Assembly (NCBI GenBank): GCA_044229315.1 | Contig: JBGATG010000007.1 | Coordinates: 4,903-68,902, forward strand | Origin: Bacteroidia bacterium | Lineage (GTDB): Bacteria > Bacteroidota > Bacteroidia > B-17B0 > Aurantibacillaceae | DNA length: 64,000 nt | Direction of reading: 5' to 3' | Part shown: positions 28,519 through 31,999 of the stretch, one piece after another | How positions within the stretch are numbered: the first letter of the stretch is position 1 | Layout of the letters: each line of letters starts with the position of its first letter | Notes under the pieces: model-generated | Told to the model about the DNA's origin: nothing | Databases searched by the model: none | The model's input: the letters and a program-made list of their open reading frames with translations, nothing else | Position numbers and translations under genes: made by a program

Positions 28519-29306
28519 ATGCTGTAAACGAGTTTAATATTCCCTCCGTTCTGCGTCAAATAAAATTTTCTAGGATCGTAAGTTTCGCCTTTAAAATAAC
28601 TACGCTCAAAGGTTTTTTTGTCTACTAAGAATTCTTGCTTTTTGGTTTCACCGATTGATTTAAACCCACATTTTAAATAACCCGTGCCGTAGCTCCATTG
28701 CTTGTCAACGTAGGTCATTACATCACCAGGCTCTTTTTCCGAAATGAAATGTTTTAATAATTTGGAAAGGCCCCCGGTAACGGTTGTTCCTTCCTTGCAG
28801 CAGAAACGAACTAATTCAAACGAACGCTTGTGGGCAGGTAAACGGTCCATTTTTCTACCTTTTGAAAAAGCAGCTACCGCAATGAGTTCTTCATTTATAA
28901 AAAGTCCGTAATGAAACGCGGCTGTTGCGTATTCCATTAAATGATGAGCATCTAAAAAAAGTTTCGCGTAAGGTGCGTTGATCTTCTTCACCTCACATTT
29001 TCTGGCGAACACCTTACAGTTAAGTTGTAATTTCGAACGAATAATAGAGAACATCTGATGTTCTCTTCTTACTATTTGATCCAGGGCAACGCTGATGCTA
29101 ATGTCTGATAATTTATCGTCGGCCTCAATGCAGGATGTTGAATTGTATAATTCAAAGGTATTCTCTTTAAAAATGCCGATCTTCAAATGTTCTTTTGCAG
29201 TGCTAATATCCAGGATGTGCTTCTTATAAGACAGTTTTAATTCGTTATTAAAATGTCGTTGTAAGTTTTCTGTAAAGCGTGCAATTATTTTTTCGGGGGA
29301 ATTCAA
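28515..29306 (-). CDS. Uncharacterised protein with Mom-like/GNAT-like C-terminal domain
   Basis: FARKC...FLDAHHL...YGLF...ELVRFC...[13 protein letters not shown]...TYVD...GYLKCGF pattern; ATGA overlaps with obgE and miaA. Confidence 0.6.
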
Positions 29307-30319
29307 AAATCATAATGGTTTAATTTTTCCCACAATAGATCTTTTAATTGCATGATATTCTTATTAGCCACCGCCGAGATAAAAATGAAAGGAACTTTAT
29401 TTTTCCCTTTTAACCCCTTTGTTACTTCTTTTGTAAGTTCTGCTTCCAATTCCTCATCTAACATATCAGATTTAGTAATAGCTAAAACACGTTCCTTTTT
29501 TAGAAGTTCGGGATTGTAGGATTTAACTTCGTTAACCAAAATATTGTATTCTTCAATAATGTCTTTACTATCGCAGCTTACCATGAATAACAGAAGCGAG
29601 TTGCGCTCAATATGACGTAGGAAACGTAAGCCCAAACCTTTTCCTTCGCTTGCGCCTTCGATAATTCCGGGGATATCGGCCATCACAAAACTTTTGTAAT
29701 TGCGGTATTCTACAATTCCCAAATTCGGAACCAAAGTTGTAAAAGGATAATTGGCGATCTCCGGTTTTGCGGCGCTAACTACAGAAAGCAAAGTAGATTT
29801 TCCAGCGTTTGGAAAACCAACTAAACCAACATCAGCTAACACTTTTAATTCAAGGATCTTCCATTCGCTTTTTCCATCCTCGCCAGGTTGTGCATGACGC
29901 GGCGTTTGCATGGTGGATGATTTGAAATGTGTATTTCCCAAGCCACCACGACCACCGGCCACAATAATATGTTCTTCTCCGTCTTCTTTTATTTCAAAAA
30001 GTACTTCGCCGGTTTCCGCATCTTTTGCAATAGTACCAAGAGGAACTTCCAGATATTCATCTTTGCCTTGTTTTCCGCTGGAATTTGAACTTCCTCCGCT
30101 TTCACCTTCGGTGGCGATTACATGTTTACGATATTTTAAATGGATCAAGGTCCAAAGTTGTTTATTGCCACGCACAATGACGTGTCCGCCACGACCACCA
30201 TCACCACCGTCAGGCCCGCCCTTGGCCGTAAATACATCACGGTGCAAATGCCTTGAGCCGGGTCCGCCTTTTCCGCTTCTGCAGCAGATCTTTACATAAT
30301 CAACAAAGTTTGAGTCCAC
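29303..30319 (-). CDS. obgE: GTPase ObgE
   Basis: [33 protein letters not shown]. Confidence 0.97.
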
Positions 30320-30335
30320 AGTTTTTTAAAATAGA

Positions 30336-30360
30336 AAAGCCTGCGCACAAGGCACAGGCT
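30336..30360 (-). terminator. Terminator-like hairpin after adk
   Basis: Minus strand AGCCTGTGC-CTTGT-GCGCAGGCT followed by TTTT. Confidence 0.6.
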
Positions 30361-30375
30361 TATATGATCAATAAT

Positions 30376-31452
30376 TTATTTACGTTTTTTAGAAGATTTT
30401 TTGGCTGCTTTCTTGGCAACTTTTTTCTTCACTACTTTTTTAGTTGCTTTCTTTTTAGCAACCGATTTTTTCTTGGCAACTTTTTTTACCACTTTCTTCT
30501 TAGCTGGTTTTTTTGCAACCTTCTTTTTAGTGGCAGGTTTTTTCTTAGCTACTTTTTTAGCAGGCTTCGCTTTCTTCTTTTTGGTAGCCGAGCTTGTCGA
30601 AGCTTTTGCTTTCTTCACAGCAGTATTTTTCTTAATATTCGCCGCTTTCTTTTCACCGTGAGCGTGACCATTGCTTTTGGAATGATCTTTAGTAACTGTT
30701 GCTAAAGTTGATACCGCAGTTTTTCTTTCTTCTTCCTCTTCTGCTTCTACACGTTTGATCGCGTCGATCTCCAATAACAAATGCGGTTCAATTTCATCTG
30801 CAACCTCAAAATCATTTACAGTAAGATCTAAATGCTCAAGATCTGTTTCCAATTGCGTCAAGTCAACTTCCGCTTTAATAAAAGTGATGCGATCTACTAA
30901 ACTTTGGAAGATCTGATCAATGGTTCCGATACCATGAATGGAATGGAATTTCCCTTGCTCGCTATAGTAATTTTTTAAAGGAAGCGTTTTGTTATTGTAC
31001 TCGGCAATACGATTGCGAATTATCCCTTCGTTCTTATCATCTTCACGTCCGCTGTCTTGTCCGCGAAGCAGTAAACGCTTGGTCAATTCTTCATCGTCAA
31101 CTTCCAAAGCTAACATGGCGTGAATAGCTGTGCCTTTCTTTTGTAAAAGATCATCCAATGCCACCGCTTGCGCAGCAGTGCGTGGAAAACCATCAAAAAT
31201 AAATCCTTTAACGTTTGGATTCGCATCTAATTTTGATTCGATCATTCCAATAACGATCTCATCGCTAACAAGATCTCCGCGATCCATAATGGCTTTCGCT
31301 TGCAAACCAAGCTCTGTTCCTCTTGCAATTTCAGAGCGTAGTAAGTCGCCTGTGCTCAAATGCACTAATCCGTATTTATTGATCAGGTTCTCTGATTGAG
31401 TTCCTTTTCCTGCGCCCGGAGGACCAAATAAAACTAAATTCAATGTTTCCAT
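30376..31452 (-). CDS. adk: Adenylate kinase with acidic linker and histone-H1-like Lys/Ala-rich tail
   Basis: GPPGAGKGTQ, LSTGDLLR, FDGFPRT, short-LID GREDD; about 165 extra C-terminal residues in frame. Confidence 0.93.
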   Translation of the reverse strand: METLNLVLFGPPGAGKGTQSENLINKYGLVHLSTGDLLRSEIARGTELGLQAKAIMDRGDLVSDEIVIGMIESKLDANPNVKGFIFDGFPRTAAQAVALDDLLQKKGTAIHAMLALEVDDEELTKRLLLRGQDSGREDDKNEGIIRNRIAEYNNKTLPLKNYYSEQGKFHSIHGIGTIDQIFQSLVDRITFIKAEVDLTQLETDLEHLDLTVNDFEVADEIEPHLLLEIDAIKRVEAEEEEERKTAVSTLATVTKDHSKSNGHAHGEKKAANIKKNTAVKKAKASTSSATKKKKAKPAKKVAKKKPATKKKVAKKPAKKKVVKKVAKKKSVAKKKATKKVVKKKVAKKAAKKSSKKRK

Positions 31453-31468: not shown

Positions 31469-31999
31469 TTATGCTAAAATGTATATATCTTTTAAATTTC
31501 TTCCCTGTCCGTTGTAATCCAAACCATAACCTATCACAAATTCATTCTTGATGGTCAATCCTACATAATCAACGCTATGCTTTTTTTTGTAGGCTTCCGG
31601 TTTAAACAACGCGGCGGCAACTTTTATTTTTTTTGTTTTGCTCAAAGAATCCATCAACTTTTCAAGCGTATTTCCCGAATCAACAATGTCCTCCACAATA
31701 ACAACAGTTCTTCCGCTTAGATCTTCGTTTAATCCTATAAGTTCGGAGACGGTTCCGCTGCTGGATGTTCCACTATAACTTGAAAGTTTAATAAAGGAGA
31801 TCTCACACGGAATGGTCACTTCTCTTAAAAGATCGGCGGCAAACATAAAAGAGCCATTTAAAACTACTAAAAATAATGGAAATTCATTGTTGAGTTCCGC
31901 ATTTATTTTTTGGGCAATATTTTTTACACCTTCGTGGATGGCCGCAGCGCTGATGTAGGGCTTGAACTGCTTGTCGTTTATAGTGATCAACTGGTTCAT
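31469..31999 (-). CDS. hpt: Hypoxanthine phosphoribosyltransferase
   Basis: VLNGSFMFAADL, VIVEDIVDSGNT, FVIGYGLDY. Confidence 0.94.
   Translation of the reverse strand: MNQLITINDKQFKPYISAAAIHEGVKNIAQKINAELNNEFPLFLVVLNGSFMFAADLLREVTIPCEISFIKLSSYSGTSSSGTVSELIGLNEDLSGRTVVIVEDIVDSGNTLEKLMDSLSKTKKIKVAAALFKPEAYKKKHSVDYVGLTIKNEFVIGYGLDYNGQGRNLKDIYILA

What the first reader, a model, noticed from the sequence alone, without database searches (positions are those of the whole stretch)
30376..31452. Adenylate kinase fused to an acidic linker and a histone-H1-like tail
Seen: after the ~190-aa kinase the frame continues with no stop or Met through an Asp/Glu-rich segment, then a 91-aa tail with 45 Lys in repeats such as AKKVAKKK and PAKKK (30376-30651). 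A terminator follows. Established: such K/A/P repeats characterise histone H1-like bacterial nucleoid proteins (Hc2, AlgP, HupB tails). Inference: the kinase is tethered to DNA, RNA or polyphosphate, possibly with intramolecular masking by the acidic linker, linking energy charge to the nucleoid.
Basis: partly seen in the sequence, partly recalled or inferred. Interest (0 to 1): 0.66.

Follow-up and report, generated by a model that had tools for sequence, protein, structure and literature searches.

The report
Adenylate kinase with acidic helix, lysine tail
The cell's only adenylate kinase is made as one protein with a strictly conserved acidic helical stalk and a floppy, half-lysine tail, which most likely tethers this energy-balancing enzyme to DNA, RNA or polyphosphate; the tail type is common but unstudied, and the stalk appears to be undescribed.

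Summary
There is one 358-aa ORF (30376-31452, minus strand). It holds a short-type adenylate kinase, an acidic segment and a 91-aa tail with 45 Lys, followed by a terminator-like hairpin.

It is not an artefact. This is the genome's only adk, in the conserved hpt-adk-obg block. The extended frame is open in 138 of 185 genomes of its order, which consists of uncultured Bacteroidia.

The "acidic linker" is not a linker. Residues 191-244 are the most constrained part of the protein (dN/dS about 0, against 0.03-0.04 for the kinase). AlphaFold predicts them with high confidence as a continuation of the kinase's last helix. They carry four heptads with hydrophobic a/d positions and invariant acidic e/g positions, like a Fos or E-coil strand.

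The tail varies in sequence and length but keeps its composition (about 39% Lys, ending KKRK). Its codons avoid long A runs.

Lys-rich Adk tails without the stalk occur in at least four other Bacteroidia families. This scan has already noted such tails on Adk in 18 or more other genomes. I found no paper on them.

Tethering to a polyanion is inferred, not shown, and the polyanion is unknown.

The parts
30376..31452 (-). adk gene, 358 codons plus stop codon TAA (30376-30378); the only adenylate kinase of the genome
   Evidence: one match in G000; NCBIfam adk equivalog NF001381 scores 234.5 bits against a cut-off of 187
30883..31452 (-). Kinase domain, residues 1-190, short-LID type. P-loop GPPGAGKGT is at residues 10-18 (31399-31425). 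The catalytic Arg and Asp residues are invariant in the 49-sequence alignment.
   Evidence: pLDDT about 90; aligns over 6-184 with the short bacterial Adk structures 3cm0 and 1p4s
30721..30882 (-). Conserved acidic helical stalk, residues 191-244 (FIKAEVDLTQLETDLEHLDLTVNDFEVADEIEPHLLLEIDAIKRVEAEEEEERK). Four heptads have hydrophobic a/d positions and invariant acidic e/g positions.
   Evidence: invariant F191 A194 E195 L198 T199 L201 E202 D204 E206 H207 L208 D209 T211 D214; dN/dS about 0; single helix, pLDDT above 90; the only such window in the genome; no Pfam, PDB or other-protein match
30652..30720 (-). Variable neutral spacer, residues 245-267
   Evidence: net charge 0; not conserved among orthologues
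30379..30651 (-). Polycationic Lys/Ala/Val/Pro tail, residues 268-358 (45 K of 91, net +46), ending KKRK. Predicted disordered. Encoded by degenerate 12-72-bp tandem repeats.
   Evidence: median Lys fraction 0.39 in 83 orthologues; dN/dS 0.10-0.34; long A runs avoided
30327..30361 (-). Terminator-like hairpin AAGCCTGTGC-CTTGT-GCGCAGGCTT plus T-rich run. It lies 15 nt after the adk stop and ends within about 10 nt of the obg start.
   Evidence: sequence
31469..31999 (-). hpt (hypoxanthine phosphoribosyltransferase), upstream neighbour
   Evidence: hpt-adk-obg order found in 92 of 114 fetched loci
29303..30319 (-). obg (GTPase ObgE), downstream neighbour

Best explanation
This is the cell's housekeeping adenylate kinase, translated as one 358-residue chain with three functional parts. 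(1) A normal, catalytically complete short-LID kinase. (2) A rigid acidic alpha-helical stalk that extends the kinase's C-terminal helix by about 55-65 residues. Its heptad pattern (hydrophobic a/d, acidic e/g) is that of a coiled-coil strand that should pair poorly with itself and prefer a basic partner. (3) A disordered, histone-H1-like polycationic tail (+46) that holds the enzyme on a cellular polyanion. Nucleoid DNA or ribosomal and other RNA are the most likely polyanions; polyphosphate is possible. The likely effect is that AMP/ADP/ATP interconversion is concentrated where nucleotides are consumed. The stalk would act as spacer and docking or assembly element, as the helix and zipper of PhaF do between its cargo and its H1-like DNA-binding tail. 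Shown: the gene structure, its conservation, the selection pattern, and the predicted helix and disorder. Inferred: polyanion binding, the identity of the polyanion, and the stalk's partner.
For: The ORF is single and is the only adk, in the conserved hpt-adk-obg block. The stalk is found in 138 of 185 genomes of the order, always once per genome, in open frames of 158-503 aa; the shortest frames lie on small contigs. Of the loci fetched, 83 complete orthologues are 270-493 aa with tail Lys fraction about 0.39. dN/dS in unsaturated pairs is 0.03-0.04 for the kinase, about 0 for the stalk and 0.10-0.34 for the tail. AlphaFold gives kinase pLDDT about 90 and tail below 50. The segment 177-263 folds as one helix with pLDDT above 90 as far as about residue 245. 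Heptad a/d positions are 100% hydrophobic and e/g positions 100% acidic in 70 sequences. This pattern is unique in the genome. Tail codons avoid long A runs: longest run 7, against 10.1 in synonymous shuffles, P=0.0014; 70 of 72 orthologues lie below the null mean. That fits a tail that is translated in frame. Lys-rich tails arose on Adk in at least four other Bacteroidia families. Eight other proteins of this genome carry them, including the DNA or ribosome proteins TopA, SWIB and RsfS. Precedents: AlgP's KPAA tail sits on polyphosphate granules and binds DNA (PMC9239181). PhaF combines an amphipathic helix, a zipper and an H1-like DNA-binding tail (PMC3574117). Lysine repeats stabilise the Streptomyces TopA-DNA complex (PMC5714199).
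Against: There is no binding, localisation or expression data, and every carrier is an uncultured MAG. Read-level support could not be obtained. AlphaFold monomer models cannot show oligomers or partners. A Pro at 223 sits inside the predicted helix, and the full-length model gives only pLDDT about 55 for residues 210-250. No basic coiled-coil partner was found in the genome by a heptad scan. A sister genus (g19) manages with a plain 192-aa Adk while keeping Lys tails on RsfS, Bcp and HemD, so the tail is not indispensable.
Confidence: 0.55

Rival explanations
1. Polyphosphate-specific tether. The tail docks Adk on polyphosphate granules so that PPK1 and Adk together regenerate ADP and ATP from AMP and polyphosphate.
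For: AlgP, with a similar tail, localises to polyphosphate granules (PMC9239181). PPK1 is encoded in this genome. The PPK-plus-Adk polyP:AMP phosphotransferase idea is established knowledge recalled from memory (Ishige and Noguchi 2000, not read here). Many carriers come from activated sludge and freshwater.
Against: PPK1 is present in 128 of 128 genomes of the order, including the genus with plain Adk, so there is no co-variation. No PPK2 or PAP was found. Similar tails sit on TopA, SWIB, RsfS, a DksA-like protein, HemD and Bcp, which have no polyphosphate logic.
Confidence: 0.12
2. Self-association or masking is the main function. The acidic helix and the basic tail bind each other. In cis this would be auto-inhibition relieved by polyanions. 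In trans it would be head-to-tail assembly or a condensate. Adk would then behave as a block polyampholyte rather than a simple tethered enzyme.
For: The acidic e/g heptad strand is expected to avoid homodimers and seek a basic partner (inference from Fos/Jun and E-coil/K-coil behaviour). A +46 tail sits in the same chain. A DksA-like protein of the same genome also pairs basic and acidic blocks.
Against: AlphaFold shows no fold-back, and the tail is unstructured with Pro residues. The tail sequence is not conserved while the helix is nearly invariant, which fits poorly with a specific helix-tail interface. Tails without the helix exist in several families.
Confidence: 0.13
3. The tail is released by proteolysis, or made separately, as a small H1-like nucleoid protein, with Adk merely the carrier gene.
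For: An earlier scan note on another genome (e1-3795118) reports an internal ribosome-binding site and ATG before an Adk tail (not checked here).
Against: Here there is no in-frame ATG after codon 113. No conserved cleavage motif is evident in the variable spacer. The stalk between kinase and tail is under the strongest constraint, which suggests the parts work together.
Confidence: 0.05
4. The tail is a tolerated low-complexity expansion with no specific function, arising from replication slippage in an AT-rich genome or giving a generic solubility or 'entropic bristle' effect.
For: Degenerate tandem DNA repeats underlie the tail, and its length varies about 7-fold. Tails are gained and lost per protein in a mosaic way. 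One genus has plain Adk.
Against: Composition is held tightly (Lys fraction interquartile range 0.37-0.41) and the KKRK-type end is kept across 83 species. dN/dS is below 0.35 and the frame is always open. Codon arrangement suppresses long A runs. Tails were acquired repeatedly on the same enzyme in several families.
Confidence: 0.1
5. Assembly or annotation artefact: a missed stop or frameshift joins adk to a separate lysine-rich gene.
For: None found; read-level checking was not possible.
Against: The same uninterrupted frame occurs in more than 130 independently assembled genomes, several of them single-contig.
Confidence: 0.01

Closest known systems
PhaF (and AlgP) of Pseudomonas: helical head, short zipper and histone-H1-like KPAA/AAKP C-terminal domain
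   Same: Same layout: a functional head, then an alpha-helical coiled-coil-type segment, then a disordered Lys/Ala/Pro tail that binds a polyanion (DNA for PhaF; DNA and polyphosphate granules for AlgP) (PMC3574117; PMC9239181).
   Different: The head here is an essential metabolic enzyme, not a phasin or regulator. The helix is strongly acidic at e/g rather than a leucine zipper shown to tetramerise. The tail repeats are KKxAKK or PAKKK, not KPAA. No homology was demonstrated and no binding was tested.
Short-LID bacterial adenylate kinases (for example PDB 3cm0 from Thermus, 1p4s/2cdn from M. tuberculosis)
   Same: The kinase domain aligns end to end (residues 6-184, E 1e-44 to 3e-39). It passes the Pfam and NCBIfam adk thresholds.
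   Different: The solved enzymes end at about 181-186 residues. This one continues for a further 168 residues.
Lysine-tailed adenylate kinases of other lineages
   Same: Adk followed by a long basic tail. NF010381 is a 335-position profile that aligns to residues 5-357. Tails without the stalk occur in Bacteroidia families f22, f45, f39 and f5, and in genera g18 and g26 of f1.
   Different: The score of 205.5 is far below the NF010381 cut-off of 426, so this protein is not a member. None of the other forms examined here carries the conserved acidic heptad stalk.
Actinobacterial topoisomerase I with C-terminal lysine repeats
   Same: A housekeeping enzyme whose Lys-repeat tail raises affinity for a polyanionic substrate (PMC5714199). 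This genome's own TopA also ends in such a tail.
   Different: TopA's substrate is DNA itself. Adk has no nucleic-acid substrate, so here the tail can only serve localisation or assembly.
Acidic coiled-coil strands (Fos leucine zipper; designed E-coil/K-coil pairs)
   Same: Hydrophobic a/d positions with acidic e/g positions over four heptads.
   Different: This resemblance is recalled from general knowledge. No partner was identified, and there is additional hydrophobicity at f positions and a Pro at 223.

Membership tests
Adenylate kinase (EC 2.7.4.3), short-LID type | Matches the curated family models above their thresholds | tested here: met
   Pfam PF00406 scores 174.5 bits against 26.8. 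NCBIfam equivalog NF001381 scores 234.5 against 187.
Adenylate kinase (EC 2.7.4.3), short-LID type | P-loop GxPGxGKGT and the substrate-binding and catalytic Arg/Asp residues (R39, R91, R130, R136, D138, D139, R148) | tested here: met
   All are present and invariant in 49 long-form sequences.
Adenylate kinase (EC 2.7.4.3), short-LID type | Short LID without a Cys4 or His-Ser-Asp-Thr insertion | tested here: met
   The LID region is RGQDSGREDDKNE with no CxxC. The full-length alignment is to short Adks 3cm0 and 1p4s, whereas long-LID structures align only to residues 4-130.
Adenylate kinase (EC 2.7.4.3), short-LID type | Housekeeping orthologue (single copy, conserved context) | tested here: met
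   One match in G000. The hpt-adk-obg order is kept in long-form and plain-form genomes.
Adenylate kinase (EC 2.7.4.3), short-LID type | AMP + ATP = 2 ADP activity | not testable with these tools
   Needs an enzyme assay.
Histone-H1-like Lys/Ala/Pro tails (AlgP, PhaF, Hc2, TopA type) | Very high Lys content with Ala, Pro and Val, and no acidic residues | tested here: met
   45 K, 18 A, 10 V, 3 P and 0 D/E in 91 aa. Median Lys fraction is 0.39 in 83 orthologues.
Histone-H1-like Lys/Ala/Pro tails (AlgP, PhaF, Hc2, TopA type) | Intrinsic disorder | tested here: met
   pLDDT is below 50 and no secondary structure is predicted for residues 254-358.
Histone-H1-like Lys/Ala/Pro tails (AlgP, PhaF, Hc2, TopA type) | Built from short degenerate repeats | tested here: met
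   Tandem repeat periods of 12, 15, 57 and 72 bp at 75-83% match.
Histone-H1-like Lys/Ala/Pro tails (AlgP, PhaF, Hc2, TopA type) | Binds DNA or another polyanion | not testable with these tools
   Needs EMSA or fluorescence anisotropy with DNA, RNA and polyphosphate.
NCBIfam NF010381 (PRK13808) long adenylate kinase | Score above the curated cut-off | tested here: not met
   205.5 bits against a cut-off of 426, although the alignment spans residues 5-357.
Coiled-coil strand of the acidic (Fos/E-coil-like) kind | At least four heptads with hydrophobic a/d positions in a predicted helix | tested here: met
   Positions 191, A194, 198, 201, 205, 208, 212 and 215 are conserved in 70 sequences. One helix spans 178-259 with pLDDT above 90.
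Coiled-coil strand of the acidic (Fos/E-coil-like) kind | Acidic residues at e/g positions | tested here: met
   E195, D197, E202, D204, D209 and E216 are 100% acidic. It is the only such window in the genome.
Coiled-coil strand of the acidic (Fos/E-coil-like) kind | Forms an oligomer or pairs with a basic helix | not testable with these tools
   Only monomer folding was available. The heptad scan found no basic counterpart.
Tetratricopeptide repeat (TPR) | Matches TPR family models and has the full 34-residue helix-turn-helix consensus | tested here: not met
   No Pfam hit at E up to 10. TPR proteins hit only profile positions 13-37 through the A20/F24/A27/P32-like pattern. AlphaFold gives one straight helix.

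The most novel reading that the evidence does not exclude
The invariant acidic heptad helix is a dedicated docking strand that captures lysine-rich tails. These could be its own tail, the tail of another Adk molecule, or the tails of the eight or more other Lys-tailed proteins of the cell (TopA, SWIB, RsfS, a DksA-like protein, Bcp, HemD and others). Adk would then nucleate a charge-patterned assembly or condensate on the nucleoid or ribosomes. That would be a membrane-less compartment for nucleotide homeostasis, built from a block-polyampholyte enzyme.
Probability: 0.1. Interest if true: 0.8.

Novelty: new variant of a known kind. Interest (0 to 1): 0.5.

Why it matters
Adenylate kinase is a standard model for enzyme dynamics and sets cellular energy charge. 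It is normally treated as a freely diffusing monomer.

Here a whole family of widespread freshwater, groundwater and wastewater Bacteroidia has kept a 168-residue appendage on its only copy. The part under the strongest selection is neither the active site nor the lysine tail. It is an acidic helix of unknown partner.

If the tail tethers the enzyme, adenine-nucleotide equilibration in these cells is spatially organised. That idea is familiar from eukaryotic flagella and muscle but not from bacteria.

Lys tails also appear on Adk repeatedly and independently, in other Bacteroidia families examined here and, according to earlier notes of this scan, in Gammaproteobacteria. That points to a general selective reason for placing this particular enzyme on a polyanion. 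The question is directly testable with recombinant protein.

Tried and rejected

2. Stalk homologues:
- tblastn in the own genome found only the Adk gene itself.
- Pfam found nothing at E up to 10.
- The PDB profile search gave only chance hits at E of 1 or more.
- A profile search of 1.84 billion representatives returned only Adk fragments plus spurious TPR-repeat proteins.
- The stalk is therefore exclusive to Adk. The TPR reading is rejected.

3. Polyphosphate link by co-occurrence: PPK1 is universal in the order, including the plain-Adk genus, and PPK2 is absent, so this is uninformative.

4. 'Genome-wide tail syndrome': rejected. The plain-Adk genus keeps tails on RsfS, Bcp and HemD. One genome with a tailed Adk lacks them on RsfS and Bcp.

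5. Search for a basic coiled-coil partner by heptad scan of all six-frame ORFs: none found.

6. Beta-strand reading of the alternating h-acid-h pattern (LDLTV, FEV): set aside, because AlphaFold predicts a confident helix.

7. Naming the organism: the records are all MAGs labelled Bacteroidia, Sphingobacteriaceae or Bacteroidota bacterium, and some are obviously mislabelled. No cultured carrier was found.

8. Literature: five searches found no paper on lysine-tailed or stalk-bearing adenylate kinases.

9. Single origin of the stalk: the kinase-domain tree is compatible with it but does not resolve it, because forks are open and the g19 branch is long.

Full report

The minus strand carries one uninterrupted ORF from 31452 to 30376, encoding 358 aa.
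- Pfam places an adenylate-kinase domain at residues 8-167 (E 2e-51).
- NCBI's adk equivalog NF001381 is passed: 234.5 bits against a cut-off of 187.
- The kinase is the short-LID kind. The LID reads RGQDSGREDDKNE and has no zinc-finger cysteines.
- It aligns end to end with the 181-186-residue enzymes 3cm0 and 1p4s.

- There is no Met after M113.
- Residues 191-244 have 19 Asp/Glu (net -14).
- Residues 268-358 are 91 aa with 45 Lys, 1 Arg and no acidic residue (net +46).
- AKKVAKKK and PAKKK are both present.
- A hairpin of 10 pairs followed by a T-rich run lies at 30361-30337.

**It is real and it is the housekeeping gene**
- The genome (4.01 Mb, 99.99% complete) has a single Adk match.
- hpt lies upstream and obg downstream. 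That order recurs in 92 of 114 fetched loci, in genomes with long Adk and with plain Adk alike.
- All 24 same-genus genomes sampled first have open frames of 350-430 aa without stops, apart from contig-end fragments.
- From 93 loci with an Adk ORF I extracted 83 complete stalk-bearing ORFs of 270-493 aa. The shortest one contains ambiguous bases.
- Their tail Lys fraction has a median of 0.39 (interquartile range 0.37-0.41). Nearly all end in KKRK, KKKK or KKKR.

**The "acidic linker" is the most conserved part of the protein**

Across homologues down to about 50% overall identity, the segment reads F-x2-A-E-x2-L-T-x-L-E-x-D-x-E-H-L-D-L-T-x2-D-F. It has 16 invariant positions in 70 sequences.

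Nei-Gojobori estimates for pairs whose synonymous sites are not saturated:

| Region | dN/dS |
|---|---|
| Kinase | 0.033 and 0.038 |
| Stalk segment | 0 and 0 |
| Tail | 0.10 and 0.34 |

The segment has no second copy in the genome. It has no Pfam family and no relative among PDB sequences. In a profile search of 1.84 billion representative proteins, the only real hits were fragments of the same Adk. The remaining hits were TPR-repeat proteins that matched a short A/F/A/P-spaced pattern.

**Structure of the segment**
- With the full protein, AlphaFold gives the kinase at pLDDT about 90. It draws one helix from residue 178 to 255 whose confidence decays to about 55. Everything after 254 is below 50.
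- With residues 177-263 alone and 70 aligned sequences, it predicts a single helix. pLDDT is above 90 to about residue 245.
- The helix carries four canonical heptads. The a/d positions 191, 194 (Ala), 198, 201, 205, 208, 212 and 215 are hydrophobic in every sequence.
- The e/g positions 195, 197, 202, 204, 209 and 216 are acidic in every sequence.
- In a scan of all six-frame ORFs of the genome this was the only 28-residue window with that pattern. No basic mirror image was found.
- By analogy with Fos and with designed E-coil/K-coil pairs (general knowledge, not tested here), such a strand should self-pair poorly and prefer a basic partner.
- Caveats: Pro223 lies inside the predicted helix. 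Some f positions are hydrophobic as well. Monomer models cannot reveal partners.

**The tail**
- It is predicted disordered.
- It is encoded by degenerate tandem repeats of 12-72 bp.
- It is free to change in sequence and length, but not in composition or reading frame.
- Its codon order suppresses long A runs. The longest run is 7, against a mean of 10.1 in synonymous shuffles (P=0.0014). In 70 of 72 distinct orthologues the longest run is below the shuffle mean, and it never exceeds 9.
- That is what selection against slippage on a translated poly-Lys sequence would produce. The orthologues are related, so the count overstates independence.

**Distribution**

The order contains one family with 11 genera.

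| Genus | Genomes with the stalk |
|---|---|
| g1 | 69/75 |
| g22 | 1/1 |
| g24 | 14/15 |
| g25 | 1/1 |
| g27 | 52/53 |
| g18, g19, g20, g21, g23, g26 | 0/39 |

- Among the stalk-less genera, g18 and g26 still have a Lys tail on Adk. g19 has a plain 192-aa enzyme on a long branch.
- In a 401-genome sample of the class, Lys/Arg-rich Adk tails without the stalk also occur in families f22, f45, f39 and f5. Families f33 and f43 are plain.
- NCBI already curates a 335-position 'long adenylate kinase' model, NF010381. This protein aligns to it along its whole length but scores far below its cut-off.
- Earlier notes of this scan list Lys-tailed Adk in at least 18 other genomes, mostly Gammaproteobacteria. 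One Bacteroidia relative is noted with an 'acidic helical linker'. I did not re-check the Gammaproteobacteria cases.
- The tail on Adk is therefore recurrent and probably convergent. The stalk is specific to this clade.
- The kinase tree is compatible with one origin of the stalk but does not prove it.

**Genome context of the tails**
- Eight other proteins of this genome carry similar tails. TopA has one at its C-terminus. Bcp peroxiredoxin, a VOC/glyoxalase protein, SWIB, a DksA/TraR zinc-finger protein, a START-like protein, RsfS and HemD have them at the N-terminus.
- The tails are not gained or lost together. The plain-Adk genus g19 keeps them on RsfS, Bcp and HemD. One g18 genome with a tailed Adk lacks them on RsfS and Bcp.

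**Mechanism**

The best-supported reading has three parts: an active kinase, a rigid acidic helical stalk, and a polycationic tail that holds the enzyme on a polyanion.

Precedents:
- AlgP's KPAA domain binds DNA and sits on polyphosphate granules (PMC9239181).
- PhaF joins a cargo-binding helix, a short zipper and an H1-like DNA-binding tail (PMC3574117).
- Lysine repeats stabilise the Streptomyces TopA-DNA complex (PMC5714199).
- Lys-rich low-complexity regions are enriched in DNA- and RNA-binding proteins of prokaryotes (PMC6821194).

Which polyanion is involved remains open.
- PPK1 is present but universal in the order, with or without a tailed Adk. PPK2 is absent. So nothing favours polyphosphate specifically.
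The e/g pattern makes it more concrete.
- Against it: AlphaFold shows no fold-back, and the tail sequence is unconstrained while the helix is nearly invariant. That points to a different, conserved partner or assembly.

**Limits**
- Every carrier is an uncultured MAG.
- No expression, processing, binding or localisation data exist.
- Five literature searches found no study of Adk tails or of this helix.

**Verdict**

This is a genuine, strongly selected three-part adenylate kinase. The lysine tail is a new member of a recurrent but unstudied pattern. The invariant acidic heptad stalk is, as far as I could find, undescribed, and it is the most interesting part.

Noticed in passing
window 30320-30375 (between adk stop and obg start): The terminator-like hairpin and its T run end within about 10 nt of the obg GTG start at 30319, which leaves no room for a promoter. 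obg must therefore be transcribed by read-through or from a promoter inside the adk tail. The hairpin may act as an attenuator or RNA-stability element rather than a full stop.
   Followed up: no
G000 contigs outside the window: C7(-)188276, C7(+)122358, C4(+)153415, C6(-)299302, C5(+)140419, C1(+)503221, C1(-)1051534, C3(+)92248 (offsets on the named strand): Eight further proteins carry AKKP-type lysine tails: Bcp peroxiredoxin, a VOC/glyoxalase protein, SWIB, a DksA/TraR zinc-finger protein, a START-like protein, RsfS, TopA (C-terminal) and HemD. Several are enzymes with no obvious nucleic-acid role.
   Followed up: partly
G000 C6(-)299302 (DksA/TraR-type protein, 321 aa): This protein also combines a basic Lys/Ala/Pro block with a long Asp/Glu block (KGEDEDEEDVDV...PDDDDEEEP) ahead of its zinc finger. 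It is a second acidic-plus-basic block design in the same genome.
   Followed up: no
L112 (G030:C44:35900-38200), another Bacteroidia family: Here Adk is fused in frame to a C-terminal region of about 325 aa that is neither lysine-rich nor low in complexity (515 aa in total). Its identity is unknown.
   Followed up: no
L101 (G146, genus g26 of the same family): The stalk-less Adk of g26 has, between kinase and tail, the stretch TVTVADISVEDEPAMHL. It faintly resembles the stalk's TVNDFEVADEIEPHLL and may be a decayed or ancestral form of the stalk.
   Followed up: no
L096, L097 (genus g19): The plain 192-aa Adk of g19 sits on a very long branch (2.7 substitutions per site) relative to all other Adks of the family, although hpt-adk-obg synteny is kept. 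This means either very fast evolution or replacement in place.
   Followed up: partly
Record titles of L017, L022, L025, L056, L070, L082: Several public MAG records that carry this Bacteroidia-type adk locus are labelled 'uncultured Akkermansia sp.' or 'Hydrocarboniphaga daqingensis'. These are evidently taxonomic mislabels in the source records.
   Followed up: no
NCBIfam NF011492 (PRK14900 valine--tRNA ligase): The Adk tail weakly matches the last ~115 positions of a curated ValRS model. So at least one aminoacyl-tRNA synthetase family also has a lysine-rich C-terminal tail built into its reference profile.
   Followed up: no
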